Source of the DNA: a virus
Lineage: Duplodnaviria > Heunggongvirae > Uroviricota > Caudoviricetes
Length of the DNA: 64,000 bases
Virus record (IMG/VR): IMGVR_UViG_3300029509_000119
Span: 63,909-127,908 of that record
Reading direction: 5' to 3' (one strand)
Below the pieces are notes generated by a model. The model had not been told where the DNA came from, did not search any database, and was given only the letters and a program-made list of their open reading frames with translations. Shown here piece after piece: positions 2,392-28,553 of this stretch (positions within the stretch are counted from its first letter, which is position 1; each line of letters begins with the position of its first letter). The position numbers and the translations under genes are program-made.

Positions 2392-2418
2392 TTTTGTGTG
2401 AACAATCCCATTATAGTT
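2392..2418 (-). promoter_or_regulatory. copy of conserved extended -10 promoter/leader motif (minus strand)
   Basis: Reverse complement reads ggaaCTATAATGGGATTGTTCACACAAAAAatg, directly upstream of CDS 1648..2370. Confidence 0.5.
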
Positions 2419-2487
2419 CCTGACTTAGGAAACCACCGACACAAAAACAAAAAGGGCGGCAAAAAGCCGCCCAAAACCAAGAAAACG

Positions 2488-2700
2488 TCAGATGTCCACA
2501 ACCGCGAGAACCGCGACGACAGTCAGAATGACCACCGCCCATCTCAGGTTCCTGCGACTGCACAACTCCCCTAGTCTCGTATCACTATCCAACAGGTCTT
2601 CCACTGCGGACACGAGGAACATGAGCGCCAATATGATAGCTCCCACAGCCAATGCGATAAGCACATTCTGTTGCGATAATAGCGACAGCATTTTTTCCAA
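2488..2700 (-). CDS. small membrane protein
   Basis: 70 aa with two hydrophobic helices (LIALAVGAIILALMFLVSAV / WAVVILTVVAVLAVV). 4 nt downstream of the MTase gene, same strand. Confidence 0.45.
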   Translation of the reverse strand: MEKMLSLLSQQNVLIALAVGAIILALMFLVSAVEDLLDSDTRLGELCSRRNLRWAVVILTVVAVLAVVDI

Positions 2701-2704
2701 TCTC

Positions 2705-3661
2705 CTATACGAACGCGGGCTGATTCAGACGGTCTCGCAGACTCAATTCCAAATATTGTTCGTTTAAATCGACGCCGACATACCTACATCCCAGCATCGC
2801 AGCCGCCAACCCGGTGGTGCCGGAACCGTTGAACGGGTCGAGCGTCACGCCACCCGGCTTACAACCGGCCTGAATGCATGTGAGGGGAATATCCACCGGG
2901 AAAGCCGCAAAATGCGCTCCCGCATACGGGCGGGTCGGCAGCATCCACACGTCGCGTAGGTTTCGTCTGCCGTCCGATGCCACGTATTCCCTACGGTCTC
3001 TTCCCAAATCCTCGCGGACGCCACCATATGCGCTTTTGTTGCCGAACGTATGCCGGTGGGCTAAATCCTCGATGGTTTTCTCCGACTGCCGTTGTCTTAC
3101 GGACTGGTAGTCGTAATAGTATTTTTCGGTTTTGGAGAATAGGAAAATATGCTCGTAGCTTTTGCTTGGACGGTCTTTCACGCTTTCCGGCATGGGGTTC
3201 GTCTTCCCCCAAATGATATCCGAGCGCAATATCCAACCGTCATCCTGCAAGGCGAACGCCACTCTCCACGGGATGCCGAGCAGGTTCTTCGCCGGACGGT
3301 CTGGACGTTTCCTGCCGTTCGGTTTCTGCACATGTCCGTGCAATCCGATGCTGTTCTCCGACCCGTCGCCGCCGTCCCACAGGTTCGGCGTGGAGTACGT
3401 GTCTCCCAAGTTCAGCCAGAATGTGCCGTCATCGGCTAGGATTCGCCTGCATTCGCGGAATACTTTGCTGAGGTCTTCCACATAGTCGCCGGGTGTGGGT
3501 TCGCGTCCGATTTCCAGTTCGGAATCCGTGTATTGGCGCAACCCGTAGTACGGCGGACTGGTGACGATGCAATCGACTGTCCCGTCGGGCAAATCGGAAA
3601 GCACGGACGACGCGTCGCCCAGATAGAGCGTCAGCGTGTCGTCTTGGAACCAAGGCTTCAC
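2705..3661 (-). CDS. DNA methyltransferase, N6-adenine/N4-cytosine beta-class (orphan, no cognate endonuclease seen)
   Basis: Motif IV 'TSPPYYGLRQY' near the N-terminus and motif I 'DPFNGSGTTG' near the C-terminus, the beta-class order. Start overlaps the upstream gene stop (ATGA). Confidence 0.8.
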   Translation of the reverse strand: MKPWFQDDTLTLYLGDASSVLSDLPDGTVDCIVTSPPYYGLRQYTDSELEIGREPTPGDYVEDLSKVFRECRRILADDGTFWLNLGDTYSTPNLWDGGDGSENSIGLHGHVQKPNGRKRPDRPAKNLLGIPWRVAFALQDDGWILRSDIIWGKTNPMPESVKDRPSKSYEHIFLFSKTEKYYYDYQSVRQRQSEKTIEDLAHRHTFGNKSAYGGVREDLGRDRREYVASDGRRNLRDVWMLPTRPYAGAHFAAFPVDIPLTCIQAGCKPGGVTLDPFNGSGTTGLAAAMLGCRYVGVDLNEQYLELSLRDRLNQPAFV

Positions 3662-4101
3662 GCCGTTTGCTCCAGTCGTTCCAATAGTTCCCGTCCCGCA
3701 GGGAGCGGAGTCAGAGCGCCTGTTGCGATGTCGAGGTGAACCAGCTTGTCGTTCAGCAGTTCGACGGCGGCGTTTTCGAAACCGGCCTTGTATGCGTTGG
3801 CCGTTCCCTGTCCGGCTTGGCGGAGCAATGTTTCGCTGTTGCGCTCGTATAGTCGGATTGGACGGTCTCCCTCGCCTTGGGCGAGCGTGGATACGAGGCG
3901 CATGCCATCCTTGGTGAGGGACGGGGCTGATTGTCCGTTACGTCGGATGAGTCCGGCATCCAGCAGTCGTCTGCCGATGTTGCTTTTGAGGATGTCGGCG
4001 GTCAACCGTCCTTTTTCGACGCCGTACAGGATTCTGGTCTCGCCTTCGCTGATACCGGCCATGAGGACGCGGAAACGTTGGGTGGAGGATTGTTCGTCCA
4101 A
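3658..4101 (-). CDS. hypothetical protein
   Basis: 147-aa ORF, translationally coupled to the MTase gene by a 4-nt overlap. Normal amino-acid composition. Confidence 0.5.
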   Translation of the reverse strand: MDEQSSTQRFRVLMAGISEGETRILYGVEKGRLTADILKSNIGRRLLDAGLIRRNGQSAPSLTKDGMRLVSTLAQGEGDRPIRLYERNSETLLRQAGQGTANAYKAGFENAAVELLNDKLVHLDIATGALTPLPAGRELLERLEQTA

Positions 4102-4138
4102 TGCTGTTCCTTTCGGAGGTTTATGTTTTTTCTAAGTC

Positions 4139-4456
4139 TCAGAGGATGGTGACGGGAGTGTCGTTCAGGCAGTCCCAGTATTCGATTCGAGTGACGGGCG
4201 ATAGTGCCTTGAACGTTTTGACGATGCCTTCATGCATGGTTTTGGCTTGCCAGTATTCCTCACTGGACGATTCTGGATTGTCCATGACCTTGGCGGAGTA
4301 TTCTTCCATTTCCAACAGGTCGAGCCTACGGAGTCGGGCGGAACCGTTCTCGTCCAGTCCGATGTTCTCCGCCAACCACTCGCGGAGCATCCAACAATCG
4401 TTGACGAACAGGAGGATTCGTCCGCTTCTGCCGTCCCATAGCATCTGATAGTTCAC
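4139..4456 (-). CDS. hypothetical protein
   Basis: 105-aa ORF. Its start overlaps the stop of the upstream gene (4453/4456). Confidence 0.5.
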   Translation of the reverse strand: MNYQMLWDGRSGRILLFVNDCWMLREWLAENIGLDENGSARLRRLDLLEMEEYSAKVMDNPESSSEEYWQAKTMHEGIVKTFKALSPVTRIEYWDCLNDTPVTIL

Positions 4457-5184
4457 AGGACTCCGCCATCCTCGTAGCCGACCGTGTATTTTCCTGTAGT
4501 GCCGTGCTGCCCGCAGTTAATCTGCAATCCATCCAAAATGACCATGCGATGCGGGGAAAGTCGCACGTCCTCGCGCATATCCTCCAAACGCATGCCGTCG
4601 TTCAGTTTTCGCAAGGTCTGCCAGTAGGCTTCGTCCAACTGCCGCCAGTATTTCAAATGGGAGTCCTTCATTTGACGGAAAAGCAGGAACGCATGCACGT
4701 ATTGCCCCGTCCAATCCACGTCGTGCATGAGCCGTTCGAGCCGGTTCAACTGCACGGTGACGTCCTCCGGCGCGTGCGATTGGAACAACGTCCAGTATTC
4801 GTTCAACGCGTCCCGCAATTCCTGCTGCCGCATGGCACGAATGGGGGTTCCTCTGAACTGCGGACTGTTGGCAAGCCACACGGCCAAATCCCATGTTTCA
4901 TCCGCGTTCGCGTCGATATTCGGGTACGCGCAGTCGCGGAGGGTTGCCCAACTGTTGCACGCTTTGACGAATCCACGTATTCCCGCAACGGCGTTCAGGC
5001 AGGACAGGAGAAGGAACACGATTCTCCACACTCCGGCGAACGTGTTCGAATACGCGAGGAGCCATCCCGCGACGAACATGACTAAAACGTATACGACGCA
5101 TTGCGGCAGCACTCCCCTGCGGAAGATGGTCTTGAGCACGTCCTGACGGTTCCCGTTGGAGGCCAGAATGCTTCTTTCTGCCAT
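4453..5184 (-). CDS. membrane protein (two N-terminal TM helices, C-terminal soluble domain)
   Basis: ORF 4453..5721 trimmed to the internal ATG 'MAERSILAS...' because the first 179 aa are R/P-rich frame noise. TM segments VVYVLVMFVAGWLLAY and IVFLLLSCLNAVAGI. Confidence 0.5.
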   Translation of the reverse strand: MAERSILASNGNRQDVLKTIFRRGVLPQCVVYVLVMFVAGWLLAYSNTFAGVWRIVFLLLSCLNAVAGIRGFVKACNSWATLRDCAYPNIDANADETWDLAVWLANSPQFRGTPIRAMRQQELRDALNEYWTLFQSHAPEDVTVQLNRLERLMHDVDWTGQYVHAFLLFRQMKDSHLKYWRQLDEAYWQTLRKLNDGMRLEDMREDVRLSPHRMVILDGLQINCGQHGTTGKYTVGYEDGGVL

Positions 5185-5198
5185 ATCGTTCTGGTTGT

Positions 5199-5540
5199 TC
5201 AAGAGGTTAGGGCTTTCGACTCTCTGAGATATTCTTCCGGCTTGAATCGGCTGTTGACTCTGATGACCCAACCGGTGTCGCTGGTTCCGGCTATCTGGTA
5301 GCGTTCGCGCTTGCGTATGAGAAGCGGACGTAGATAGTTGTTGAGTCGGAGCTGTCCTACGGTGGGTGGGTCTCCCAGAAGCGTGGGGACGCGTTGGATG
5401 CCTTCGGCGGTGTCGAAGTAGAGAAGGATTGGCGTCTCGTCCTTGCAGGAGTCGAGGAATCCTCCTATGGTGTCGAGGTCTCGGCGTGGGCGGGAGCGTT
5501 GTTGGGGTTGACTGCCCGCATTGCCTGTTTCGATGGTCAA
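5199..5540 (-). CDS. hypothetical protein
   Basis: 113-aa ORF with a conserved promoter copy just upstream on the minus strand. Confidence 0.45.
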   Translation of the reverse strand: MTIETGNAGSQPQQRSRPRRDLDTIGGFLDSCKDETPILLYFDTAEGIQRVPTLLGDPPTVGQLRLNNYLRPLLIRKRERYQIAGTSDTGWVIRVNSRFKPEEYLRESKALTS

Positions 5541-5557
5541 GAAGAAACCTTCCTTGT

Positions 5558-5583
5558 TTGCGGCTGGTTCCAGTATAACGCAG
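5558..5583 (-). promoter_or_regulatory. copy of conserved promoter/leader motif (minus strand)
   Basis: Reverse complement is tgcGTTATACTGGAACCAGCCGCAAA, upstream of CDS 5199..5540. Confidence 0.4.
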
Positions 5584-5621
5584 TATTTTTAAAACAAGGA
5601 AGGTTTCGGAAAAAATATTCC

Positions 5622-5993
5622 TCAGCCGAGCTTGGATTCGGAATTGTCCATTGGTTGGGTGAGCGGCCTGCCGTCCGCGACCATCTGCTCGATGTCCTCG
5701 TAGTCGTCGCACGCCGCCCACAGCCCGAGGTCAGGGCTGAGGTGGTACATGGTTCCCGTCTTCGCGCCTTCGGCGATGTAGAATCCATGACTGCAAGTGT
5801 CGAGGATGTTGGTCGGCTGGGGGTCTTGCTCGTAATCGTCGAGGTTCCATGGGTCGCCTTCGGGGAGGAGCACGTAGTCCCCGACTCCTTCGCGCACGTC
5901 CCGCAGTCGCCGGTCGTATTCGTCTTGGAGGTCTTGCTCGCGGTCGAGCATGAGGTTGATTTGGTAGTCGATGCTGTTGAAGTAGTCGCTCAT
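5622..5993 (-). CDS. hypothetical acidic protein
   Basis: ORF 5622..6116 trimmed to 'MSDYFNSIDYQ...' because the upstream part is read-through of the promoter motif (MLYWKRS). D/E-rich. Confidence 0.5.
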   Translation of the reverse strand: MSDYFNSIDYQINLMLDREQDLQDEYDRRLRDVREGVGDYVLLPEGDPWNLDDYEQDPQPTNILDTCSHGFYIAEGAKTGTMYHLSPDLGLWAACDDYEDIEQMVADGRPLTQPMDNSESKLG

Positions 5994-6022
5994 TTTCGTC
6001 TCCTTGGTTTTGACTTTTCCTT

Positions 6023-6052
6023 TTTTGCGTGAACGTTTCCAGTATAGCATCA
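6023..6052 (-). promoter_or_regulatory. copy of conserved promoter/leader motif (minus strand)
   Basis: Reverse complement is tgaTGCTATACTGGAAACGTTCACGCAAAA, upstream of CDS 5622..5993. Confidence 0.5.
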
Positions 6053-6339: not shown

Positions 6340-7365
6340 TCAGTTTCCGTCCGCAGCGCACTGTGCGAGGAACGATTTCGTCTCCGCCTTCTCCCACCCG
6401 CTCATGGACAGCTTGTACTTGTCTTTGATGTACACGCGTTTCGCCATGTACGAGCATTGGTACGTCTTGTTGGATGGAAGCCACACGCTTGGAGTGCCGT
6501 CCTGCCATTTGGTTTTGGAGCCGTTCAACGCCTCGTCCCTCACGAGGTTCACGCCCTGCTGTTTGACGTTGTTCGCCTCGCCTTCGGACGCGACGAGCAC
6601 TTCCGGGTCGTTCGCGTAGGCGATGCGGTCGCCTTTGCGTGAGTCCTTCCATAGGCCGCTGGCCCAAGCGTCGTTGACGGCGACCACGTGGTCGATTTGG
6701 ACGGCCATGCTGTCTCCGCCGGTCTTCCTTTGCTTGCCGTTGACGGTCTCGTAGGTGTCGCGTTGGAATCTGATGGTCTTGCCGGTGTACGGGTCTTGCA
6801 GGGTTCCGGTGAGTACCTTGCAGTTCTTGTCCATGGTCACGTCGGACATGTCGCGTTTGAGGATGTAGTCTCTCGTGGTGCCGTAGCCGCATAGTTGGCT
6901 GCTGTTCTGCCATGTGCCGAAGTCTTTTTTGCGGTCGTAGCCTTTGGTGTGAGGGGCGGCGGTTTCGATGTTGGAGAGCCTGTCGAGCGCCTGTTGCGTG
7001 GTGATGGGGCTTAAAGCGCCTTCAGGGACTCCTGTAGAGGCTGTTTGTTCCTGACTTGAGGAATTGTCCCCGTTTGGCGTCTGCGTCGATTCTGAGGGCG
7101 TTTCCGTGGCTTCTGGAGTGTTTGTCCGCGTATTGGGGTCGGACGGTTTCGAGGAAGGCTCCTTCAACCCCAGTTTCACATCAGGTTTGACCTTGGAATC
7201 CTCCCCCGGCATCAACTGGGACAAGTCATTGATTTCCGGCAGTCCGAAAATCTGCGACATGGGCTTCCACAATCCCAAGTTCACGATGAGCACCATGGCC
7301 GTCAACACGACCAGAATGCCGCCAATCAACGAACCGGCGGACATCCCGCCCTTCTTCCTAGCCAT
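6340..7365 (-). CDS. membrane-anchored DUF1524-type (His-Me finger/HNH-like) nuclease-like protein, extracytoplasmic
   Basis: Start at 'MARKKGGMSAGSLIGGILVVLTAMVLIVNLG' (N-terminal TM anchor). Low-complexity S/T/P/E linker. C-terminal 'IDHVVAVNDAWASG ... NNVKQQGVNLVRDEALN' resembles the DUF1524/GmrSD C-terminal His-Me motif. Confidence 0.55.
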   Translation of the reverse strand: MARKKGGMSAGSLIGGILVVLTAMVLIVNLGLWKPMSQIFGLPEINDLSQLMPGEDSKVKPDVKLGLKEPSSKPSDPNTRTNTPEATETPSESTQTPNGDNSSSQEQTASTGVPEGALSPITTQQALDRLSNIETAAPHTKGYDRKKDFGTWQNSSQLCGYGTTRDYILKRDMSDVTMDKNCKVLTGTLQDPYTGKTIRFQRDTYETVNGKQRKTGGDSMAVQIDHVVAVNDAWASGLWKDSRKGDRIAYANDPEVLVASEGEANNVKQQGVNLVRDEALNGSKTKWQDGTPSVWLPSNKTYQCSYMAKRVYIKDKYKLSMSGWEKAETKSFLAQCAADGN

Positions 7366-7391
7366 AAGCAACCTCCAAAAAATGTTCCGCT

Positions 7392-7526
7392 TCACAGGTT
7401 CAGGATGACGCTGATGGCAAGGCACACGATGAACGCTATCGCGATAATCGCGCCGGTCAGCGGGCCGTTGCTGTTGATGAACTCGGCGAACTTGTCGCCC
7501 TCATTGGGCTTGTTGCGTCCTGCCAT
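7392..7526 (-). CDS. small single-pass membrane protein
   Basis: 44-aa C-terminal part of ORF 7392..7730 starting at 'MAGRNKPNEGDKFAEF...IIAIAFIVCLAISVILNL'. The upstream part of the ORF is R/P-rich noise. Confidence 0.35.
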   Translation of the reverse strand: MAGRNKPNEGDKFAEFINSNGPLTGAIIAIAFIVCLAISVILNL

Positions 7527-7545
7527 TTTTCTTCTTCCTTTCGGA

Positions 7546-8805
7546 TTAGTCGTTCGGACCCTCATTGGGGTCTCCGGTGACGGAACCATCGTCTGAATTC
7601 TGGGTTGGGCTGTCGCCGTCATCGGATGGCTGGCCGTCGGACGAACCGGAGTCGCCGACACCGTTGGTGGAATCCGACGAACCGGAATCGGACGCCGCAT
7701 CCTCCTCGTCGTCACTGCCGGACGAGCCAATCAGCGAACGGTCGATGGCATTGTTGAACGCCTTCAACGTGGTCAGACTGCCCTCCGCGCCCCAGTCAAC
7801 GATTTTCGCGCTGCCACGGGTCGGATTGTGGATAAGAACCGTGACGCTCGTATCCACGTTGCCCACCGACTTGATGTCCGCGCTTGGATTGTTCGCGGCA
7901 CTCGCGTCAACCTTCTTCTCATAGGGTTTGAACGAGATGCTGACGCTCGCCGCAGCCCATTCGGGATTGTCGGACTTGTTCTTCTTGTCAACGACCTTGC
8001 CGTCCTTGGTGCATTGCACCAGCCATTCGACGGACGAGTTCAGATACGAACCCAAGCTTGCTGGCTGGTACACGTGCTCGCTGTTCGGGTCTCCGACAAG
8101 TACGGTCAACGCGTTGGGGTCTTTGCCGACGTACGCCTTTGCCCACGCGCCGACCACGGTCGTCAGGCTCGTGTTCTGGTCAAGCTGAACGTACCCGTCG
8201 GGACGATACGTGTCGGTGCCGCTGTCCGAAGTGACTGTCTTGGGCAGCACGGTCGGCGTTCCCACCGCAGTAGCCACTCCGTCCGTGACGGCGACAAGCT
8301 GGGTGATGTCCCTCGTGCTTCCGTCCGACTTGTCGGTAAGGGACATCTGATGGCTCCAATATTGGGTGACTTCCCCATCGGAACCGTCCGAAGTGGAAGT
8401 GCCCACTTCAGTGGCACCGTTCCACCACAGGTTCGCATACCCGTATTGGAACGCGCCATTGTCGTCATCCAACCAACCGTATACGGATTGCAACGCGACC
8501 TGCTTGCCGGGCTTGTCGCCGTTAACCTCCTTGAGCTTCGAACTCATATACGAACCCATGTCGGTCAACGTGTTGATTGCACGGACGGAAATCATCGGCG
8601 CGACCAGTCCGGTGCAGACGAACAGGACGATGAGAACCTTCCACTTCCGAGTGTTCTTCAACGCCTTCTTCCAAGCGGTGAGTTCTATTTCGTTCTTGCG
8701 TTCCTTCTCGTCGGCGAACAGGTCGGTCTCATCGTTCGGATTCTGCCACGCCTTCTGCTGTCCTATCGGCTGATTGCCGTTCTTGTCTTTCTTGTTTCCG
8801 AACAC
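7546..8805 (-). CDS. membrane-anchored surface protein with S/D/G-rich acidic tail
   Basis: 419 aa. Cytoplasmic N-terminus, TM 'WKVLIVLFVCTGLVAPMISV', large extracellular domain, low-complexity 'SGSDDEEDAASDSGSSDS...' C-terminus. Confidence 0.55.
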   Translation of the reverse strand: MFGNKKDKNGNQPIGQQKAWQNPNDETDLFADEKERKNEIELTAWKKALKNTRKWKVLIVLFVCTGLVAPMISVRAINTLTDMGSYMSSKLKEVNGDKPGKQVALQSVYGWLDDDNGAFQYGYANLWWNGATEVGTSTSDGSDGEVTQYWSHQMSLTDKSDGSTRDITQLVAVTDGVATAVGTPTVLPKTVTSDSGTDTYRPDGYVQLDQNTSLTTVVGAWAKAYVGKDPNALTVLVGDPNSEHVYQPASLGSYLNSSVEWLVQCTKDGKVVDKKNKSDNPEWAAASVSISFKPYEKKVDASAANNPSADIKSVGNVDTSVTVLIHNPTRGSAKIVDWGAEGSLTTLKAFNNAIDRSLIGSSGSDDEEDAASDSGSSDSTNGVGDSGSSDGQPSDDGDSPTQNSDDGSVTGDPNEGPND

Positions 8806-9200: not shown

Positions 9201-9233
9201 CTTATGGGAGTAGGCGTTTCAGGTCGAAAGCGT

Positions 9234-21757: not shown

Positions 21758-22968
21758 TTACGCCCACGACCTTTCTTTCCTTCACTGTTCTTAGCGTTCG
21801 GATTGAATCTTCCCGGATTGAAACCACGGTCGGGCAAAGCCCAGTTAAGAATGTTCTCCCTAGCAAAAGCAAGACCGGGGTCATCCCATCTGACATCACC
21901 GTTGGCGATATGGTTGCTTGCCTCGACCGTCTGATATTCGGTTCCGAGAAACGTTCCGTATCTCGTATAGTCGAGTCGCCTGTAACCTTGCAATCCGACC
22001 GGAACAGTGTCCTTGATGCCGATGAGTTCCTTCGGAAGATGATGTTCCGCCAATGCCGTCAGCAGATTCAACGCGTCTATCTGCGTCTGCCTTCCAGCCT
22101 TGACGATAACCAGACAAGGGTCTCCCGATTGAATGTATGGAAGCAGTAAACCGTTGGCGATATTCTCCCTATCATCCAAATCGTCCGCGCTGATTCGGTC
22201 AAGGTCGAGCACGACGAAATCCCACAGTCGGCGTGCCGCTTGGATGTACTGACGGTATATCTGCCAGTCCACTCCGATACCGGCTGGAGGTGCGAAACAG
22301 ATATCGTATGGAACCCCAAGGTCACGTCCTCGATTGGCTCCAACCTGCACCTGCATGCCCGGTCGCCAGTCGGCTATCGTATGCAATGGCTTGTCCTGTC
22401 TCGGGTCAAAAAAACTACGTTGGCTGGACTGCCGGATGTTCCCGTCGATGAGTAGAACACGCAATCCGACTTGCGACGCACGGTCTGCCAACTGTCGGCT
22501 GGACGTGGTCTTCCCCACTCCTCCGGTGTTGGATGTGATGGGTAGGAGAACCGCAGTCTCCTTCACTTTGTTTTGGAGGATATCGACTACGAGACGCTTG
22601 TCCGCAAGCTGGATTCCCCAATAAGTCCGTGCGAAATCAGCCACGCTCATGCGTAACATCTGTTCGCTCATGCCCATGGCTCCGACCGGTATCTGACCGG
22701 TGTTGCACCAGTAGACCATGTATCCGGCGTTGGCTATCGGAAGCCAGTTTCCAGCCCTGTCGGTGAAGATGATTCCTTTGAACCCGGAGGGCACCGGATG
22801 TCTTACCAGATAGTCGGCCTGTGCTTGAATATTGTCTGCGGCGGGCACCTGCCAACGCATGTTTCCGGCTCTCGTAAGGGCCTTTTTGATGGTTGTGAGA
22901 AGCCCTCCGGAGCCGATTATCAGGGAAATCGTTCGTTTTTCCAATAAGACCGCCTCCTGATGGGTCAT
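21754..22968 (-). CDS. ParA/MinD-superfamily ATPase with N-terminal extension (CpaE/TadZ-like)
   Basis: 'ITSNTGGVGKTTSSRQLA' is a deviant Walker A in the C-terminal half. ~150-aa N-terminal domain. First gene of the minus-strand operon. Confidence 0.6.
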   Translation of the reverse strand: MTHQEAVLLEKRTISLIIGSGGLLTTIKKALTRAGNMRWQVPAADNIQAQADYLVRHPVPSGFKGIIFTDRAGNWLPIANAGYMVYWCNTGQIPVGAMGMSEQMLRMSVADFARTYWGIQLADKRLVVDILQNKVKETAVLLPITSNTGGVGKTTSSRQLADRASQVGLRVLLIDGNIRQSSQRSFFDPRQDKPLHTIADWRPGMQVQVGANRGRDLGVPYDICFAPPAGIGVDWQIYRQYIQAARRLWDFVVLDLDRISADDLDDRENIANGLLLPYIQSGDPCLVIVKAGRQTQIDALNLLTALAEHHLPKELIGIKDTVPVGLQGYRRLDYTRYGTFLGTEYQTVEASNHIANGDVRWDDPGLAFARENILNWALPDRGFNPGRFNPNAKNSEGKKGRGRK

Positions 22969-23029
22969 GTTCCGTTGTTTTCATCGGAACGTTTACGGTT
23001 TTGTCCGAGTTCTGGCATTTATAGTTTTT

Positions 23030-23640
23030 GATATTTAGTTTTTTGTTGGTTCTGCTGTTGCTTTTTCATTGCATTGGCTGTTCCTGTATTGATGTTACCT
23101 TGTTTTGATTGTTGTTGACCCTGTTGGTGTGACTATTGACCTTTTTGTTGTCTGGCTGACCGTGTGGGGTGTTGTAGTGATTGTGATGTGGTTGCTGTCG
23201 TACCGGTTCTTTCTTCTTTGGGTTTGACACTGTCTTATGTGGTGCGGCTTCTGCTGTTTGCGTGTTTCTGCTGTCGCGTTTTTTGTAGTCTGTTCTTCTA
23301 TTTTTCTCTGTGTGGGCTTTTGTCTGTTGCGTCCTGTTGTCTTATGGTGGCTGGTTGCTCTGCGTTTGGTTCTTTAGTTACGTTGTGACCTGATTTACGG
23401 CATGGATTATTCTTCTTGTTCTGTCGTTGTTCTCTATTTTCGGTTCTTTCGTACTGGTGTTCTTTCTTGATTGTGTTGCTGTGTCTTCTTTTCTTCTGAT
23501 GTGGTCTCTTCTTTCTGTCTGGTTTTATTCTTTTGTTTCTTCTTTTTCTTGGTTCTTCTTTTTGATGGCATAGGGTTCTTGGATTTTTGTTTTTTGGAGT
23601 GGTTTCTTCTCTCTTTTTTTGAAGTCCGCTGTTCATGCTG
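23030..23640. other. ~600-bp pyrimidine-rich, A-depleted tract on the + strand (T about 55%, A about 3-8%, by hand count)
   Basis: Hand counts of two 60-nt lines gave T 32-35, A 2-5, C 10-12, G 11-13. Low-complexity TTC/TTG-type runs. Lies in the 940-bp divergent intergenic region between CDS 21754..22968 (-) and 23911..24594 (+). Confidence 0.6.
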
Positions 23641-23910
23641 GCCACCGGCGCGGCGGACGGCTTTGGCCTGTTCTTCTTCAGGTGACGCTCTAATCGTCGT
23701 TCCTGTTTTCCTTTCCCGTCATTGGACTCTTTTTTCTTGGTTACGTTTTTCGGATGGAACCTACCGGCTCGGGCGGGAGGGCTGTTTCCTGTTTTCTCTG
23801 TTTTGGAATGGCGGAATCAGTTACACTCGTAAATTGAAAATACAGAACACCTCGTTCTGACTGCTAACAGCCTGTCTGACCGGAGTGTTCGCTGGCTGAC
23901 GAAAGAAGGT

Positions 23911-24594: not shown

Positions 24595-24615
24595 GTTTCC
24601 AACTCCAACATCATT

Positions 24616-24648: not shown

Positions 24649-24656
24649 TCTTGCAT

Positions 24657-25427
24657 TCAAGACCGGTTTTTACGGCGTAAACGTACCGCATCTTCGGACG
24701 AGTACACGCCGAACGGGCTGATGGTCACACTGTATTTCGTCATCCGGTACGTCCACTCGGTCTGACTGTCGTTCAACTCTTTGAACCTCTTCAACAGGCT
24801 TTGCGCGGAAAGGCTCTGGCTGCTCGCCGGAAGCAATGATGGAAGGTCCTCACGTTCGATGATGAGACGATGGTTTTCCGGACAATACAATGCGGACAAC
24901 ACGAGCAAGTCTATACCGATGGCGCTTCCCGCGTTCGGATACAGGCACTTCAGCGGGAGCTGGCGGACGTTTCTTGTCATCATGCGGACGAACTGCTCCG
25001 TGAATGTGATTCTACGATGTTCGACTGTCAGGAAATCCGGGCTGATGTCCGTATGCGACACGGGAATTATCTTATTCCCATCCATGTCGGTGAACTGTAT
25101 TTCGGTGAGCATGAGCAGCCGGTCACGTACCGTGGTTCGTCCGTCGCCGCCACTGTTCAACCCGCATTTGTTCGCCAGATAGAAGAAGTCCTCTCCGATG
25201 GTGAGGGTTCTGGTTTCCGCATTCCATTCACGGCTAGGAGTGTTGACGAGCGTGGTGATGATGATGCTTAACAGACGTGGGGCTCGTCCCGAGAACGTCT
25301 GCTTGTCTTTCGCACGGTATGGGGCGAACAGTGGGTATGATTCCGCTGTGACGTATCCGATGTCGTAGCCGAGTATCGTATGATAATCGACTTTCAGGGT
25401 TTCCAACCCGTAGGTTCCTTCGTTCAT
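24657..25427 (-). CDS. hypothetical protein (256 aa)
   Basis: Normal composition. Last gene of the minus-strand operon that begins at the promoter copy at 28526..28553. Confidence 0.5.
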   Translation of the reverse strand: MNEGTYGLETLKVDYHTILGYDIGYVTAESYPLFAPYRAKDKQTFSGRAPRLLSIIITTLVNTPSREWNAETRTLTIGEDFFYLANKCGLNSGGDGRTTVRDRLLMLTEIQFTDMDGNKIIPVSHTDISPDFLTVEHRRITFTEQFVRMMTRNVRQLPLKCLYPNAGSAIGIDLLVLSALYCPENHRLIIEREDLPSLLPASSQSLSAQSLLKRFKELNDSQTEWTYRMTKYSVTISPFGVYSSEDAVRLRRKNRS

Positions 25428-25571
25428 GGTGTCTCCTTAATGATGTGGACGGAGTGTGGTTTCCGTCGATAAGACAATCATACCCCCACGTTAAGGTTGG
25501 AAGATGAAAAAAGCCGGTGGTCAATATCAACCACCGGACTAAAAATCCTAGATTTTCCTCCTATCCGCCTT

Positions 25572-25850
25572 TTAAGCAGACGTGTCGTCCACGTCAGGTT
25601 TTTTATCCTCCGAAACAGGTCTGCACGAATTTCGACCCGACTTGCCGGACGCCCTGCGTTCCAATCGAAGCTGGTAGCGGATACGCTCCAACGTCTTGGA
25701 CGTGTCCGTTATATTGCCCTTGCGGGCTTCACGAATCCACAACTGGCAGCCACGGTCAAGCATGGCAATGTCCGATAGTTTCGGTTGCCTGTCAGAACGT
25801 TTCAACGACTTCGACGGTATTTGTTTTCGTTGTTGTCCATCGTCTTGCAT
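25572..25850 (-). CDS. possible small basic protein
   Basis: ORF 25572..25901 (GTG start), tentatively trimmed to 'MQDDGQQRKQ...'. S/R/K-rich. Could instead be non-coding intergenic sequence. Confidence 0.25.
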   Translation of the reverse strand: MQDDGQQRKQIPSKSLKRSDRQPKLSDIAMLDRGCQLWIREARKGNITDTSKTLERIRYQLRLERRASGKSGRNSCRPVSEDKKPDVDDTSA

Positions 25851-25905
25851 TCCACCCGCCTTTCCTGTTCGTCGGCGTGGGCGTTTTGACGATTCGCCCA
25901 CTTTT

Positions 25906-26913
25906 TCACAGGTTTGGAATCTCCTTTTTCAAAGAGTCAAAAGCTTTGAGAAGCGTTTCCGTGGGAATGGTCTCCGACCCGGAAATCAAAGCGTTACGAG
26001 CCAAACCGTCTACGGTTTGGACAAGCAGGGATGGGCTGACGCCGGACATGTCGAAATCGGCTGGGACGTCAGATTTGACGTTCAGTTCCTTAAGACGACG
26101 GACGACGATAATCCTTGAGGCGGGCTTGTCCGTCATGTTCAACCGGATTCTCACGTCGAACCGTCGCCATGCGGCACGGTCAATGAGACTGTTCATGTTG
26201 GTCGCGCAGACGAGCACGCAATCGTCGGGCAGTGAGTCGATTCTTTGCAACATGAGATTGGTTGCGCGGCGCATCTCCGCCACATCCTGAACGTTGTCTC
26301 TACGGGCGAGAAGCATGTCGCATTCGTCAATGAAAAGAAGCCGACGTTCCGCGTGGAGCCGGTCGAACACCAATGCGATGTTGTCCAAGGTCTTGCCGAG
26401 CTGACTGCTTATCACACGGTCAGCACGAAGAACGATGCCGGGCAATCCGAGACGTTCGGCGAGTATGGATGCGAACGTGGTCTTGCCCGTGCCGGGCGCT
26501 CCGGTAAGGATGATTTTGTTCCGTGGGGCGAGATTGTGCGAAACCAATACGTCGGAATGGCAGTGCTCCTCCACGAGTCCATCCAGCGTCTCCTCTATGG
26601 TCTTGTCCCATACCGGCTTGTGTGTTCCATCCAATACCGGCAGCGGTTCGGTCAGCCCGTCCACCGGGGTCAGGTTCGGATTGGATGACTGTCCTTTCGC
26701 CTGTTCCAGCTCGGCGAGCCGACGCAGCCTGTCAGCGGAGGCGGATGATTTTCCGTTCTCGTAGGAGTCGGCCAATAATCTGATTTGCCGTGCGAATCTC
26801 AGATGGTCTTCGTCGCATGCGGCTTTGACCAGACGCAGCATCTCTGTTTTGTTCAATATGTTCCACCTTTCGGGAATTGGCTCACATGCCATCGTGGAAA
26901 ACCGTGGGGTCAC
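25906..26913 (-). CDS. classical-clade AAA+ ATPase
   Basis: Walker A 'ILTGAPGTGKTT', Walker B 'LLFIDECD', second region of homology 'CATNMNSLIDRAAWRRFD' with the arginine finger. ~120-aa N-terminal non-ATPase domain. Start overlaps the upstream gene by 4 nt. Confidence 0.75.
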   Translation of the reverse strand: MTPRFSTMACEPIPERWNILNKTEMLRLVKAACDEDHLRFARQIRLLADSYENGKSSASADRLRRLAELEQAKGQSSNPNLTPVDGLTEPLPVLDGTHKPVWDKTIEETLDGLVEEHCHSDVLVSHNLAPRNKIILTGAPGTGKTTFASILAERLGLPGIVLRADRVISSQLGKTLDNIALVFDRLHAERRLLFIDECDMLLARRDNVQDVAEMRRATNLMLQRIDSLPDDCVLVCATNMNSLIDRAAWRRFDVRIRLNMTDKPASRIIVVRRLKELNVKSDVPADFDMSGVSPSLLVQTVDGLARNALISGSETIPTETLLKAFDSLKKEIPNL

Positions 26914-27143
26914 TGGTAGAAAGACTTGTTGTACGCGATAATGGCTACGACCGAGACAGTCAACACCAACAGTGAAATCACGGTCATCAGCCGATAGTTG
27001 AACAGGTCGGAACGGGACTTCTCATCAGGCATACGGCTCATGCGCCCAAGGGAAAGACGAGCGTAATGGACCATTGCGGACAAGCTTAGAATGGACAGCA
27101 GTATGAGAAGCAGTGACACTTGGGAACGCTCGTCGGACAACAC
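26910..27143 (-). CDS. small two-TM membrane protein
   Basis: 77 aa: 'VSLLLILLSILSLSAMV' and 'LMTVISLLVLTVSVVAIIAY'. GTG start. Confidence 0.45.
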   Translation of the reverse strand: MLSDERSQVSLLLILLSILSLSAMVHYARLSLGRMSRMPDEKSRSDLFNYRLMTVISLLVLTVSVVAIIAYNKSFYQ

Positions 27144-27532
27144 TATTCATCCTTGCGAATCCACCGGTCGGGATGGTCTAGATACGGGTAGAGTTCAGGA
27201 ATTCTCTTTACCGCTTCGCTGACCCAACCGTTGCGGCAGATGCGTTCCAAATAGTCCAACGGCTTGCGTTGGAGGTATTTCGATTTTGCCTCTCGGGTCT
27301 TTCCGATGGCTTCCACGGCTTTCGCGTTGGCCTGTTCGGATGTGATTAGTCCACTGTCTTTGCTGGCGGAAATGGCAGTCAACTGTCTTCTGAGCCGACT
27401 GACTGCCTCCATGTCGTTAGCGTACGGTCGTGCTGGAGTGGAAGTCCTGCCCTTATTCTCTTTGTTGGACTCGTTCTCGCTCAACCCTTTTGCTTCCTTT
27501 TCTTCTTGCGATGTCCTCGATGCTTGTTCCAC
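27143..27532 (-). CDS. hypothetical protein, paralogue A of a tandem pair
   Basis: The C-terminal 'LERICRNGWVSEAVKRIPELYPYLD' matches 'LCKLCRNGWIREAADEMKIVYPDLD' in the upstream gene. Homology extends upstream of the internal ATG, so the GTG at 27532 is the probable start (uncertain). It would overlap the upstream gene's end by 52 nt. Confidence 0.45.
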   Translation of the reverse strand: MEQASRTSQEEKEAKGLSENESNKENKGRTSTPARPYANDMEAVSRLRRQLTAISASKDSGLITSEQANAKAVEAIGKTREAKSKYLQRKPLDYLERICRNGWVSEAVKRIPELYPYLDHPDRWIRKDE

Positions 27533-27819
27533 TGTTCAAGAGAATCCAAGTCGGGGTATACGATTTTCATTTCATCCGCCGCTTCACGAATCCAGCCGTT
27601 GCGGCAGAGTTTGCAGAGACGAACCATTGGGCCGCTTGTCGCTTTCGGCATTCCTCCGTTTGCTGTCACCACGGCTTCGACCGCCAGATTGTTGGCTTCG
27701 TCGTAGGGAATTGACCCTTCGTTTTTCCCGTCCGCTATCTCGCAAAGCCGTTCTCGTAGTTGGAAAAGCTTCCTTGTTTTTTCCAATGTTGGATGGTATG
27801 TCTGTATCGGCTCCGGCAT
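27481..27819 (-). CDS. hypothetical protein, paralogue B of a tandem pair (basic K/R C-terminal tail)
   Basis: ORF 27481..27906 trimmed to 'MPEPIQTYHP...', which has a GGGAGAACA RBS. Paralogous to 27143..27532. Confidence 0.45.
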   Translation of the reverse strand: MPEPIQTYHPTLEKTRKLFQLRERLCEIADGKNEGSIPYDEANNLAVEAVVTANGGMPKATSGPMVRLCKLCRNGWIREAADEMKIVYPDLDSLEQWNKHRGHRKKKRKQKG

Positions 27820-27850
27820 TGTTCTCCCGTGGGTCTCCTCTTGGTTGCGC

Positions 27851-28231
27851 TCACAGTCCGGCTTGCTGAATACGTCCCAGCCAGTACTTGCGGTCGGCGG
27901 ACGCATACGTTTCGTTGATGGTGGAGGCGAGTTCCTGATAGCGGATGGTCAAATCTGGCTGGTATCGTGCCGTCGCCGGTGGAACGACCGTGGTCATCGA
28001 ACCATGGTTGAACAGCAGGACGTCACGGTCTGCGCTTTCGTGTTCGAGCTTGCTGTCGATTCCTTCGAGCCACTGTCGGGTTTCGTCGTCGTTAGGCAGT
28101 CTGCCCTCGCCAATCATTCGGCTTATCGTGTCTTTGAGGTCGAGCAGCGCGTCCTGCATGCGCTCGTTTTTTTCTAGGAGTCGGTCGAGTTCGGTTTTCG
28201 GTTTCTGTTCCGTTTTGGTTTCGGTTTCCAT
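27851..28231 (-). CDS. hypothetical protein (charged, coiled-coil-like)
   Basis: ORF 27851..28261 with the start at 'METETKTEQK...'. E/K/L-rich. Confidence 0.45.
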   Translation of the reverse strand: METETKTEQKPKTELDRLLEKNERMQDALLDLKDTISRMIGEGRLPNDDETRQWLEGIDSKLEHESADRDVLLFNHGSMTTVVPPATARYQPDLTIRYQELASTINETYASADRKYWLGRIQQAGL

Positions 28232-28303
28232 GCGTGTTGCCTTTTTTCTGTGTGATGACATGCCTGTGCCCCAGTCTTTTTCAGGCTGGGGTATTCTGTT
28301 TTG

Positions 28304-28480
28304 TTAGGCGTCCAATCCGTTGAGGAAGTGGGCGAGCAGGGCGGCTGAGCTGAGTAGGAATGTGATGCTGGTGATTGCCATGACCACGTGTCCGTAATCC
28401 TGTCTCCACATGAGGAATGCGCTGACGATTGTGATGAGTGTCAATGTCAGGTTGATGTTGTTTTCCGTCTGCTTGCTCAT
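28304..28480 (-). CDS. small membrane protein (59 aa)
   Basis: 'MSKQTENNINLTLTLITIVSAFLMW...ITSITFLLSSAALLAHFL'. RBS AAGAAGAAACC. First gene after the promoter copy. Confidence 0.4.
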   Translation of the reverse strand: MSKQTENNINLTLTLITIVSAFLMWRQDYGHVVMAITSITFLLSSAALLAHFLNGLDA

Positions 28481-28525
28481 GGTTTCTTCTTTTTTCCCGG
28501 CGTGGCTGGGAGTGTGTGGCTCCCT

Positions 28526-28553
28526 TTTTTTGTGGACGATTCCAGTATAACAA
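28526..28553 (-). promoter_or_regulatory. copy of conserved promoter/leader motif (minus strand)
   Basis: Reverse complement is TTGTTATACTGGAATCGTCCACAAAAAA. Upstream of the 8-gene minus-strand operon 28480..24657. Confidence 0.5.

What the first reader, a model, noticed from the sequence alone, without database searches (positions are those of the whole stretch)
2392..28553. The same promoter element in minus orientation heads four minus-strand operons elsewhere in the window
Reverse-complement copies occur at 2392..2418 (before CDS 1648..2370), 5558..5583 (before 5199..5540), 6023..6052 (before 5622..5993) and 28526..28553 (before the 8-gene AAA+ operon). Each is correctly oriented and spaced relative to its downstream gene. 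The regulon therefore includes the MTase-proximal genes and the AAA+ operon, on both sides of the rep/par/T4SS backbone. Orientation always follows the gene, not the replicon. This argues for function, a promoter, rather than a passively duplicated repeat.
Basis: seen in the sequence. Interest (0 to 1): 0.55.

Follow-up and report, generated by a model that had tools for sequence, protein, structure and literature searches.

The report
Shared promoter cassette of Bifidobacterium megaplasmids
The four reverse-strand repeats are real copies of a roughly 30-base promoter cassette that heads about two dozen gene units on this Bifidobacterium conjugative megaplasmid; the same motif was already published for the related plasmid pMP7017, so this is a sound but largely known result.

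Summary
All four minus-strand copies exist at the stated coordinates. They belong to a family of at least 24 copies in the window, against 0-2 weak hits in shuffled sequence. The consensus is TRTGnTATACT-GGAAty-GTYCACAYAAAA. Every copy is intergenic. In 22 of 24, a co-oriented start codon lies 12-57 nt after the predicted start site.

The upstream half reads as an extended -10 promoter for the housekeeping sigma factor, with little or no -35. The downstream half is a box always placed 6 nt after the -10. Its core (C+6, A+7) is as invariant as the -10.

The window is a divergent relative of the pMP7017 family of conjugative megaplasmids. Dineen et al. 2024 (PMC10832533) described the homologous 34-bp motif, with 19 copies, about 56 genes and RNA-seq support, and proposed a transcription-factor site.

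All four copies are kept upstream of orthologous genes in every syntenic relative examined (4/4, 26/26, 26/26, 25/25), while the flanks diverge.

- The MTase itself lies in the 5568(-) operon.
- The "8-gene" AAA+ operon probably ends at a terminator after 6-7 genes.
- The "T4SS" label is unverified.
- One weak minus copy (57499) has no minus-strand gene downstream.

What reads the +1 box is still unknown. A plasmid repressor is my best guess.

The parts
2390..2419 (-). Motif copy. -10 TATAAT at 2415..2410, GGGA discriminator, box GTTCACACAAAA, predicted +1 at 2403. Heads the single gene 1648..2370(-).
   Evidence: (36.8 bits). Kept in 4/4 syntenic relatives. Preceded by terminator 2472..2454(-).
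5552..5581 (-). Motif copy with a weaker box (AGCCGCAAAC). -10 TATACT at 5577..5572, predicted +1 at 5565. Heads the operon 5540 to 2488.
   Evidence: (26.0 bits). Kept in 26/26 relatives, and the downstream TTG-start ORF is conserved as a protein.
2488..5540 (-). Six-gene operon driven by the 5568(-) copy: 5199..5540, 4453..5271, 4139..4456, 3658..4101, the N6/N4 DNA methyltransferase 2705..3661, and 2488..2691. It ends at terminator 2472..2454.
   Evidence: Gene calls. Pfam N6_N4_Mtase E=1.4e-50. No minus-strand terminator between 5540 and 2472.
6021..6050 (-). Motif copy. TGc extended -10, TATACT at 6046..6041, box GTTCACGCAAAA, predicted +1 at 6034. Heads 5622..5993(-).
   Evidence: (39.1 bits). 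Kept in 26/26 relatives whose protein is 75-98% identical and whose upstream flank has diverged.
28524..28553 (-). Motif copy. TGt extended -10, TATACT at 28549..28544, box GTCCACAAAAAA, predicted +1 at 28537. Heads the AAA+ operon.
   Evidence: (42.7 bits). Kept in 25/25 relatives.
25514..28480 (-). AAA+ operon: 28304..28480, 27851..28231, 27481..27819, 27143..27484, 26910..27143, the AAA ATPase 25906..26856, and possibly 25572..25850. It ends at intrinsic terminator 25537..25514. Gene 24657..25427 lies beyond the terminator.
   Evidence: (PF00004 AAA).
28619..28648 (+). Weak copy, back-to-back with 28524..28553(-). Heads 28681..28905(+).
   Evidence: 16.6 bits. Also present in L118, L120 and L121.
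567..596 (+). Copy (CATACT) 230 nt upstream of the Xre-type HTH gene 813..1184(+). A degenerate minus copy (TAAAAT-N6-GTCCACACACAA, about 575..540) lies back-to-back with it.
11754..11779 (-). Degenerate copy in the parA promoter (CACTAT-ggtttc-GTCCACACC). The orthologous parA promoter of a pMP7017-type plasmid is a clear motif copy.
   Evidence: Membership of the window copy is uncertain.
31300..31329 (+). Copy between dnaB (29950..31290) and the Band_7 gene (31341..32720).
   Evidence: (23.3 bits).
34319..41333 (+). Dense plus-strand array of 8 copies at 34319, 35559, 37113, 37654, 38672, 39498, 39960 and 41304 (30 nt each). Each heads a short unit of mostly orphan genes. The units include an HTH_17 gene (35184..35363) and ArdC (40317..41171).
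   Evidence: (39.5-45.5 bits).
45859..57557 (+). Further plus-strand copies at 45859 (before the RNase_T exonuclease gene), 47491, 47836, 53176 (unit containing the RNA ligase gene), 55182, 55643, 56921 and 57528.
57483..57512 (-). Weak minus copy (AATACT), back-to-back with 57528..57557(+). No minus-strand gene lies downstream, so it would transcribe antisense to 56961..57494(+).
   Evidence: (21.7 bits).

Best explanation
Each copy is a self-contained promoter cassette used throughout a family of Bifidobacterium conjugative megaplasmids. This window is a divergent relative of pMP7017.

Upstream half (-17 to -3), TRTGnTATACT followed by GGRA. This is read by the host housekeeping sigma-A RNA polymerase as an extended -10 promoter that needs little or no -35. 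Transcription should start at the conserved G, 7 nt after the -10.

Downstream half (+1 to about +12), GTYCACAYAAAA. It always sits in the same register and is as conserved as the -10. It is not something RNA polymerase is known to read. I infer that it is the binding site of a plasmid-encoded regulator. A site overlapping the start point of an intrinsically strong promoter most likely serves a repressor.

Proposed biology. The regulator ties roughly two dozen units into one regulon. These include the orphan methyltransferase operon, ArdC, an exonuclease, an RNA ligase, the AAA+ operon, the Band_7 gene unit and perhaps par. Such a regulon could fire on entry into a new cell and then be damped.

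Status of each step:
- Shown here: the copies, their statistics, their orientation and spacing, their conservation at orthologous sites, and their homology to the published pMP7017 motif.
- Shown in the literature, for pMP7017 only: association with highly transcribed genes.
- Inferred: sigma-A dependence, the exact start site, that the box is a protein operator, repression, and the zygotic-induction logic.
For: Statistics and position:
- 24 copies against 0-2 in shuffles; all intergenic.
- 22 of 24 are co-oriented with a start codon 12-57 nt after the predicted +1.

Logo from 231 unique relatives' copies that did not match the search pattern:
- T-17 70%, T-15 67%, G-14 82%.
- T-12 95%, A-11 100%, T-10 92%, A-9 96%, C-8 71%, T-7 100%.
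- G-6 94%, G-5 91%.
- G+1 93%, T+2 95%, C+4 94%, A+5 90%, C+6 100%, A+7 100%, A+9 88%.
- Only weak T-richness at -36..-34.

Other evidence:
- The box is never found free-standing above chance. It is always 6 nt after a -10-like hexamer.
- All four minus copies are conserved at orthologous positions while their flanks diverge.
- The window is syntenic with B. longum plasmid NZ_CP146883.1. Backbone proteins are 44-67% identical.
- That plasmid carries about 21 copies of tgtTATACTgaataYGTCCACATAAAA on both strands, each before a co-oriented gene. The genes include ssb-MTase, the 3'-5' exonuclease, the RNA ligase unit and parA.
- Dineen et al. 2024 report this 34-bp motif overlapping the -10 of highly expressed pMP7017 genes, with 19 copies, 56 genes and absence from bifidobacterial chromosomes.
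- A strict-pattern scan of 185,579 species-representative genomes gave only two single chance hits, neither bifidobacterial. More than 115 stretches in 100-217 kb gut contigs carry it.
- No sigma factor or RNA polymerase is annotated on the complete relative.
Against: - No transcription data exist for this plasmid. The start site and sigma-A dependence are read from sequence alone.
- No regulator has been identified.
- The box is asymmetric, with only a 3+3 TGT-NN-ACA dyad. That is unusual for a dimeric repressor.
- On pMP7017 the motif was discovered among the most highly expressed genes in established plasmid-bearing cells. A tight repressor is therefore excluded. Partial damping, activation, or no DNA-level regulation at all remain possible.
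- The -6..-1 segment differs between lineages: GGAATT here and GAATAT in the pMP7017 type.
Confidence: 0.75

Rival explanations
1. The box acts in the RNA, not the DNA. All regulon transcripts would begin with the same 5'-terminal tag, GUYCACAYAAAA, followed by an A-rich, U-poor leader. The tag would be read by a plasmid-specific RNA-binding protein or riboregulator, or it would set mRNA stability or translation efficiency.
For: - The box lies entirely downstream of the predicted +1 and is strictly strand-specific and 5'-terminal.
- Leaders are about 45-50% A and only 4-13% T from +9 to +34.
- In the pMP7017-type plasmid the conservation often continues through the ribosome-binding site to the ATG, as GTCCACATAAAAAnGAAAGAGGAAACCAATG.
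- High steady-state expression of motif genes fits a stabilising or translation-enhancing leader.
Against: - There is no complementary partner sequence elsewhere in the window. Every box match on either strand lies in promoter context.
- No Rfam family matches.
- The distance to the start codon varies (12-57 nt), so the box is positioned by the promoter and not by the ribosome site.
- No conserved secondary structure involving the box was seen.
Confidence: 0.15
2. There is no dedicated factor. The whole 30 bp is simply an optimised, portable expression cassette that has spread with gene cassettes by recombination between copies, like the mobile early-promoter cassettes of T4-type phages. On this view the box is conserved through homogenisation and common descent, not through regulation.
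For: - One relative (L118) lacks window 37141..38667, which is two transcription units. The crossover lies exactly inside a motif copy.
- Homology-block boundaries between relatives and the window fall within a motif +/-10 nt in 37 of 189 cases, against 3.4% of sequence.
- Gene content between copies differs among close relatives.
Against: - Orthologous copies keep the box while the adjacent intergenic DNA, and proteins down to 71-77% identity, diverge. This argues for selection on the box itself.
- C+6 and A+7 are invariant across two lineages whose backbone proteins are only about 50-65% identical.
- If breakpoints are simply intergenic, about 28% would hit a motif by chance, so the enrichment does not prove recombination at the motif.
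- Two other indels have junctions outside motifs.
Confidence: 0.07
3. The element is the promoter of a plasmid-encoded polymerase or alternative sigma or specificity factor, in the way phage T7-type promoters are long and invariant. It would not be a host sigma-A promoter.
For: - About 27 contiguous conserved bases spanning the start site resemble single-subunit phage polymerase promoters in length.
- The family is catalogued as viral in IMG/VR.
- Many large proteins have no known function.
Against: - The upstream half matches the Gram-positive housekeeping pattern TRTGnTATAAT position by position, with the invariant A-11 and T-7.
- No sigma factor or RNA polymerase is annotated on the complete 193-kb relative.
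- No such domain appears in the precomputed Pfam hits for the window.
Confidence: 0.03

Closest known systems
The conserved 34-bp motif and 'presumed pMP7017-specific regulon' of Bifidobacterium breve megaplasmid pMP7017 (Dineen et al. 2024, Microb Biotechnol 17:e14405, PMC10832533)
   Same: - Same plasmid family, with a syntenic backbone.
- Same architecture: TGY-TATACT, 6 nt, then GTYCACAYAAAA, within 60 bp of start codons.
- Copies on both strands, with orientation following the gene.
- Overlapping cargo: an orphan DNA methyltransferase, a 3'-5' exonuclease and an RNA ligase unit.
- Absent from chromosomes.
   Different: - The -6..-1 segment is GGAATy here and GAATAT there.
- The commonest box is GTTCACAC here and GTCCACAT there.
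- Density is far higher here: 24 copies in 64 kb, against 19-21 in about 190 kb.
- Backbone proteins are only about 44-67% identical, so this is a separate lineage.
- No transcript data exist for this lineage.
Extended -10 (TGn, or 'TRTG' in Gram-positives) sigma-70-family promoters with a G-rich discriminator contacted by sigma region 1.2 (from my own knowledge: Voskuil and Chambliss 1998; Feklistov 2006; Haugen 2006)
   Same: T-17, R-16, T-15, G-14, n, then TATAMT with invariant A-11 and T-7. GG at -6/-5; copy 2406 is exactly TATAATGGGA. The -35 is weak or absent.
   Different: Ordinary promoters of this class have no conserved sequence from +1 to +12. The pMP7017-type lineage lacks the GG.
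CUP (conserved upstream repeat) promoter elements with ArdK control in the leading region of IncN plasmids, and the KorA/KorB operators of IncP RK2 (from my own knowledge)
   Same: A repeated promoter-plus-operator module places many plasmid establishment and anti-restriction genes under one plasmid-encoded regulator. This is the functional logic I propose here.
   Different: There is no sequence or protein homology. The regulator here is unidentified. CUPs are hundreds of bp long. KorB sites are palindromic and variably placed relative to promoters.
'Stoperators' of mycobacteriophage L5 and other cluster A phages (from my own knowledge: Brown et al. 1997)
   Same: An actinobacterial mobile element carries dozens of asymmetric 13-bp sites. 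They are confined to intergenic gaps, and their orientation tracks the direction of transcription.
   Different: Stoperators are not fused to promoters and block elongation. Here every box sits exactly 6 nt after a -10 hexamer.
PeSL mobile early-promoter cassettes of T4-type phages (from my own knowledge: Arbiol et al. 2010)
   Same: Repeated promoter cassettes separate small orphan genes in a plastic region. At least one cassette indel here has its junction inside the repeat.
   Different: Only 7 of 24 copies have a terminator-like hairpin upstream. The role of recombination is not shown to be general.

Membership tests
pMP7017 34-bp promoter motif / plasmid-specific regulon | Sequence consensus AWAYATGYTATACTGAATATGTCCACATAAAAWA | tested here: met
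   The window consensus is TGtTATACTGGAAttGTtCACAcAAaa. It shares TGY, TATACT, the 6-nt spacer and GTYCACAYAAAA with the published motif and with the copies in NZ_CP146883.1. It differs at -5..-2, +3 and +8.
pMP7017 34-bp promoter motif / plasmid-specific regulon | Overlaps a -10 hexamer and lies within about 60 bp upstream of a translation start | tested here: met
   In 22 of 24 copies the start codon lies 12-57 nt after the predicted +1.
pMP7017 34-bp promoter motif / plasmid-specific regulon | Carried on a pMP7017-family megaplasmid | tested here: met
   - dnaB is 76% identical at nucleotide level to B. longum megaplasmids.
- The block from DUF1524 through ParA and the large backbone genes to dnaB is syntenic.
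- 35 window proteins have homologues on NZ_CP146883.1.
- The source contig is about 180 kb.
pMP7017 34-bp promoter motif / plasmid-specific regulon | Absent from bacterial chromosomes | tested here: met
   The strict pattern gave 2 single hits in 185,579 species-representative genomes, neither in Bifidobacterium. Only one stringent pattern was scanned.
pMP7017 34-bp promoter motif / plasmid-specific regulon | Drives high transcript levels | not testable with these tools
   RNA-seq exists only for pMP7017 in B. breve UCC2003.
Sigma-70-family extended -10 promoter | -10 hexamer with A-11 and T-7, and TG at -15/-14 | tested here: met
   A-11 100%, T-7 100%, G-14 82%, T-15 67% in 231 copies. Among the four minus copies, 6037 and 28540 have TGn, 5568 has only G-14, and 2406 has neither but carries a perfect TATAAT+GGGA.
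Sigma-70-family extended -10 promoter | Functions without a -35 consensus | tested here: inconclusive
   Only T-richness is seen at -36..-34 (58-70% T). It may partly reflect upstream terminator T-tracts. A generic TTGACA-N17-TATAAT scan does not pick these sites up. Function cannot be tested here.
Sigma-70-family extended -10 promoter | Transcription starts 6-8 nt after the -10 | not testable with these tools
   A conserved G preceded by a pyrimidine sits 7 nt after T-7. No 5'-end data are available.
Operator of a global plasmid repressor (KorB, ArdK or omega type) | A cognate DNA-binding protein encoded on the element | tested here: inconclusive
   There are candidates only.
- The ParG/omega-like protein 10519..11043(-). 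Its conserved C-terminus is predicted as an extended segment, a helix, a G-T turn and a second helix, with pLDDT 62-77. It has no PDB or Pfam match.
- The Xre-type HTH 813..1184(+), which is conserved in pDS1566 next to an ImmA/IrrE gene.
- The HTH_17 protein 35184..35363, which gave no hit in PLSDB.
Operator of a global plasmid repressor (KorB, ArdK or omega type) | Dyad symmetry or tandem repeats typical of dimeric repressors | tested here: not met
   Only a 3+3 TGT-NN-ACA dyad is shared by both lineages. Conservation is asymmetric: T-1 is 64% but A+7 is 100%.
Phage L5-type stoperators | Asymmetric site acting independently of promoters | tested here: not met
   No free-standing boxes were found above chance. 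Every box lies 6 nt after a -10-like hexamer.
Single-subunit (T7-like) or element-encoded polymerase promoter | Element encodes its own RNA polymerase or sigma factor | tested here: not met
   None is annotated on the complete relative. None appears among the Pfam hits in the window. This rests on annotation only, and many proteins are of unknown function.

The most novel reading that the evidence does not exclude
The +1 box may not be a classical operator. It could be a private 'address label' that gives the plasmid its own expression channel. One form would be a shared 5'-terminal RNA tag read by a plasmid factor. Another would be a site read by a small ribbon-helix-helix partition protein doubling as a global regulator, as omega does in pSM19035. 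At the same time the 30-bp cassettes may serve as recombination joints that let the plasmid swap orphan-gene cassettes, a promoter-cassette shuffling system so far described for T4-type phages rather than for conjugative plasmids.
Probability: 0.15. Interest if true: 0.6.

Novelty: new member of a known kind. Interest (0 to 1): 0.3.

Why it matters
pMP7017-type megaplasmids occur in roughly a tenth of human gut microbiome samples, mostly from infants and mothers (PMC10832533). They are among the few conjugative vehicles known in Bifidobacterium.

This work shows that a divergent lineage uses the same promoter cassette even more intensively: 24 copies in 64 kb, heading methyltransferase, ArdC, nuclease, ligase and AAA+ units. 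The copies are kept at orthologous sites. This strengthens the case that the motif is a selected, family-wide control element.

It also narrows what must be explained. The -10 and the +1 box are constant across lineages, while the 6-nt spacer sequence is not.

In practical terms, the cassette is a compact, probably strong, -35-independent promoter for Bifidobacterium engineering.

The unknown reader of the box is a well-defined and experimentally tractable question. It is not a long-standing one, and the core observation is already in the literature.

Tried and rejected
- Megablast of window 28-48 kb against phages: no match. Against plasmids: only a TnpB gene and dnaB matched, which gave the taxonomic lead.
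- pMP7017 itself (KM406416) is not in the plasmid collection. I used B. longum pDS1566 p1 instead.
- PHROGs on 10 regulon proteins: no families. Pfam on about 24 proteins: few hits.
- Rfam at gathering thresholds and tRNA/tmRNA scans of the window: nothing.
- Search for free-standing boxes that might mark a regulator's own promoter or an antisense partner: none above chance.
- tblastn of the HTH_17 protein against plasmids: no match. It is not supported as a family-wide regulator, although a 59-aa query is insensitive.
- ParG-like candidate. The AlphaFold model is mostly disordered (mean pLDDT 53.6). Foldseek against PDB gave no match, and the profile against PDB sequences gave only noise. A ribbon-helix-helix fold is suggested only by the secondary-structure pattern and the G-T turn.
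- The idea that every copy is insulated by an upstream terminator: only 7 of 24 copies, against 6% at random positions.
- An ECF-sigma reading with GGAAT as the -35: rejected, because nothing is conserved 16-17 nt further downstream.
- A LexA or Cheo-box reading of GAAT..GTTC: rejected, because the spacing is wrong and there is no palindrome.
- Enrichment of homology breakpoints at motifs: not accepted as proof of recombination, because an intergenic-only null predicts a similar fraction.

Full report
**1. Observation**

Reading the minus strand at the four stated sites gives:
- 2419..2390: gaacTATAATGGGATTGTTCACACAAAAAA
- 5581..5552: gcgtTATACTGGAACCAGCCGCAAACAAGG
- 6050..6021: atgcTATACTGGAAACGTTCACGCAAAAAA
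- 28553..28524: ttgtTATACTGGAATCGTCCACAAAAAAAG

The 10-mer TATACTGGAA with at most 1 mismatch occurs 16 times, against 1.1 expected. A 30-nt weight matrix built from 21 copies finds 24 sites at 8 bits or more. Mononucleotide shuffles give 0-2.

All 24 sites are intergenic. Intergenic DNA makes up 11.8% of the window by my gene calls, so the chance of this is about 5e-23.

Twenty-two sites have a co-oriented start codon 12-57 nt after the predicted start site. The exceptions are 571(+), which has a 230-nt leader, and 57499(-), which has no minus-strand gene downstream.

**2. Anatomy**

I used 231 unique copies from relatives that did not match the pattern I had used to fetch them. The profile is:
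- T-17 (70%), R-16, T-15 (67%), G-14 (82%), n.
- T-12 (95%), A-11 (100%), T-10 (92%), A-9 (96%), C-8 (71%), T-7 (100%).
- G-6 (94%), G-5 (91%), R-4, A-3 (77%), t-2, y-1.
- G+1 (93%), T+2 (95%), Y+3, C+4 (94%), A+5 (90%), C+6 (100%), A+7 (100%), c+8 (70%), A+9 (88%), then AAA.

Conservation stops sharply at about -17 and +13. Upstream there is only T-richness at -36..-34. Downstream, the leader is A-rich and T-poor up to the ribosome-binding site.

From established knowledge, which I did not test here:
- TRTGnTATAAT is the Gram-positive extended -10 consensus.
- GGGA just after the -10 is the discriminator sequence contacted by sigma region 1.2.
- A purine 7 nt after the -10 is the usual start site.

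The stretch from +1 to +12 has no counterpart in ordinary promoters. The box GTYCACA is not found free-standing above chance in the window. It always lies 6 nt after a -10-like hexamer.

A generic -35/-10 scan does not detect these sites, which is consistent with -35 independence.

**3. What the replicon is**

Megablast links the window to Bifidobacterium longum plasmids. A TnpB gene is 96-97% identical and dnaB is 76% identical.

Exact-protein look-ups place the window on a gut-metagenome contig of about 180 kb (ENA ERZ1303581 NODE_14). Near-identical contigs occur in other samples.

Recognisable genes:
- An N6/N4 DNA methyltransferase (2705..3661-).
- A GmrSD_C-like protein (6340..7365-).
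- RepA (9540..10409+), with 22-bp iterons at 9239..9360.
- A type Ib ParA (11072..11734-).
- An AAA ATPase (25906..26856-).
- DnaB and a Band_7 protein.
- ArdC (40317..41171+).
- An RNase_T exonuclease.
- A pentapeptide-repeat protein.
- An RNA ligase.
- A weak AAA_10 (VirB4-like) hit at 59819..62479.

The block from about 6 to 31 kb is syntenic with B. longum DS1566 plasmid p1 (NZ_CP146883.1, 193 kb). Backbone proteins are 44-67% identical.

**4. It is already published for the sister lineage**

Dineen et al. [quoted passage not shown] It has 19 copies and is predicted to drive 56 genes, about 24% of coding capacity.

They suggested that it is a transcription-factor binding site. They noted that it precedes comparable genes in pMP7017 homologues and is absent from bifidobacterial chromosomes.

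Their regulon table includes an adenine methyltransferase (COG0863), SSB, a DNA polymerase III epsilon-type exonuclease and type I-E cas genes.

I found the same motif, tgtTATACTgaataYGTCCACATAAAA, about 21 times on pDS1566 p1. It is on both strands, each time before a co-oriented gene. The genes include ssb-MTase, the 3'-5' exonuclease, the RNA ligase unit and parA. There are three back-to-back divergent pairs.

The window's motif has the same TGY, TATACT, 6-nt spacing and GTYCACAYAAAA. It differs in the spacer (GGAATy against GAATAT) and in the commonest Y choices.

My strict pattern hit more than 115 stretches in 100-217 kb IMG/VR contigs. Among 185,579 species-representative genomes it gave only two isolated chance hits.

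A full-text search found no follow-up paper that identifies the factor.

**5.

I fetched relatives through the downstream proteins rather than through the motif. The copy is present upstream of:
- the orthologue of 1648..2370 in 4/4 loci;
- the orthologue of 5622..5993 in 26/26 loci, with protein identity 75-98% and a diverged upstream flank;
- the orthologue of 5199..5540 in 26/26 loci; this TTG-start ORF is conserved as a protein, so it is a real gene;
- the AAA+ operon in 25/25 loci, with the second-gene protein 71-94% identical.

The copies are therefore under purifying selection at orthologous positions.

**6.

- The 5568(-) copy heads a tight six-gene operon that contains the methyltransferase. 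The operon ends at the strong terminator 2472..2454, which lies immediately upstream of the 2406(-) copy.
- The AAA+ operon meets a strong intrinsic terminator at 25537..25514(-), before gene 24657..25427. It therefore has 6-7 genes rather than 8.
- No T4SS domain was detected in the 12.5-23 kb block.
- That backbone block and the 6340..8805 unit have no motif copy. The regulon covers accessory and establishment-type units rather than everything.
- There are additional minus-strand copies. A weak one lies at 57512..57483, antisense to 56961..57494. Degenerate ones lie at about 575..540 and in the parA promoter at 11779..11754.

**7. Mechanism**

Shown: a conserved, oriented, promoter-shaped cassette that is homologous to one associated with high transcription on pMP7017.

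Inferred: host sigma-A polymerase reads positions -17 to -3 and starts at G+1.

The box at +1..+12 is as constrained as the -10. It lies mostly in the downstream duplex, which polymerase does not read base-specifically. Something else must therefore select it.

A site overlapping the start point of an intrinsically strong promoter is the classical position for a repressor. The cargo also fits the zygotic-induction logic known from the IncN CUP/ArdK and IncP KorA/KorB systems. That cargo includes ArdC, an orphan methyltransferase, nucleases, a ligase and, in pMP7017, SSB.

Against tight repression, pMP7017 motif genes are among the most highly expressed in established cells. In addition, the box is asymmetric.

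Candidate readers, all speculative:
- The ParG/omega-like protein after parA (10519..11043-). It has a conserved N-terminal tail, a hypervariable linker and a conserved C-terminus. The C-terminus is predicted as an extended segment, helix 127-140, a G-T turn and helix 143-157, with pLDDT 62-77. It has no PDB or Pfam match.
- The Xre-type HTH protein 813..1184(+). Its homologue on pDS1566 sits next to an ImmA/IrrE protease gene.
- The HTH_17 protein 35184..35363(+).

No sigma factor or polymerase is annotated on the complete relative.

**8. Rivals**

- An RNA-level 5' tag.
- A portable cassette spread by recombination, with no dedicated factor.
- An element-specific polymerase or sigma factor.

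On the second rival, one relative (L118) lacks window 37141..38667, and the crossover lies exactly inside a motif copy. Homology-block boundaries are enriched at motifs: 37 of 189, against 3.4% of sequence. An intergenic-only null would give about 28%, so this is not proof. Two other indels have junctions outside motifs.

**9. Verdict**

The phenomenon is a divergent-lineage instance of a motif published in 2024. I rate it a new member of a known kind, of modest interest. The identity of the box reader is the one real open point.

Noticed in passing
window 9239..9360: 5.6 tandem copies of a 22-bp unit (AAGTTCCAACTTTCCGTGGCAG) lie just upstream of the RepA_C gene 9540..10409(+). They are probably replication iterons.
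   Followed up: no
window 22950..23900 (minus strand): About 950 nt upstream of the first gene of the conserved backbone block (21754..22944-) contain no convincing gene. The stretch is extremely A-rich and T-poor on the minus strand: AT skew -0.36 and GC 0.49, the lowest in the window. Its function is unknown.
   Followed up: no
window 57483..57557: Two motif copies lie back-to-back, with their -10 hexamers 23 bp apart. The minus one (AATACT) has no minus-strand gene and would make an RNA antisense to 56961..57494(+). Similar divergent pairs occur at about 540..596 and 28524..28648, and three times on pDS1566 p1.
   Followed up: partly
L118 15771..15800 versus window 37113..37142 and 38672..38701: A relative lacks 1.56 kb (two transcription units). 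The junction lies exactly inside a hybrid motif copy, so recombination between copies adds or removes gene cassettes.
   Followed up: partly
L120 18887..18903 versus window 40229..40245 and 45260..45276; L118 versus window 40293..41187: A near-identical relative carries a 5-kb deletion at a 17-nt microhomology inside genes. Another relative lacks precisely the ArdC ORF. The accessory array is highly plastic.
   Followed up: no
window 11754..11779 (-), and NZ_CP146883.1 near 137684 (-): The parA promoter of the pMP7017-type plasmid is a clear motif copy (TACACTgaatgtGGCCACATAAAAAA). The window's parA promoter retains only a degenerate version (CACTATggtttcGTCCACACC). Partition may belong to the same regulon.
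   Followed up: partly
window 10519..11043 (-): The protein encoded after parA has an invariant 26-aa N-terminal tail, a hypervariable Pro/Gln-rich linker whose length varies by more than 60 aa among relatives, and an invariant C-terminal domain of about 55 aa with a ribbon-helix-helix-like pattern.
   Followed up: partly
IMG/VR contigs in loci L003-L117: This plasmid family is catalogued as viral genomes (UViGs of 100-217 kb) in IMG/VR. This is probably a misclassification of conjugative megaplasmids. No phage match was found for 20 kb of the window.
   Followed up: no
window 28508..28524: The leader of the AAA+ operon carries a GGGAG...CTCCC hairpin right after the box. It is retained in all 25 relatives. 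Read on the plus strand, it looks like a terminator followed by a T-run.
   Followed up: no
window 43799..44980 (-): A TnpB (OrfB_IS605/Cas12f-like) gene, 96-97% identical at nucleotide level to copies on B. longum plasmids, interrupts the plus-strand array. A relative carries a TnpB at a different site.
   Followed up: no
window 813..1184 (+); NZ_CP146883.1 124093..125201: This Xre-type HTH protein is conserved between lineages. On pDS1566 it is followed by an ImmA/IrrE metallopeptidase gene and preceded by two 19-bp direct repeats (TGCGTCnATGTnGGCGCAA). This could be an ImmR/ImmA-like switch.
   Followed up: no
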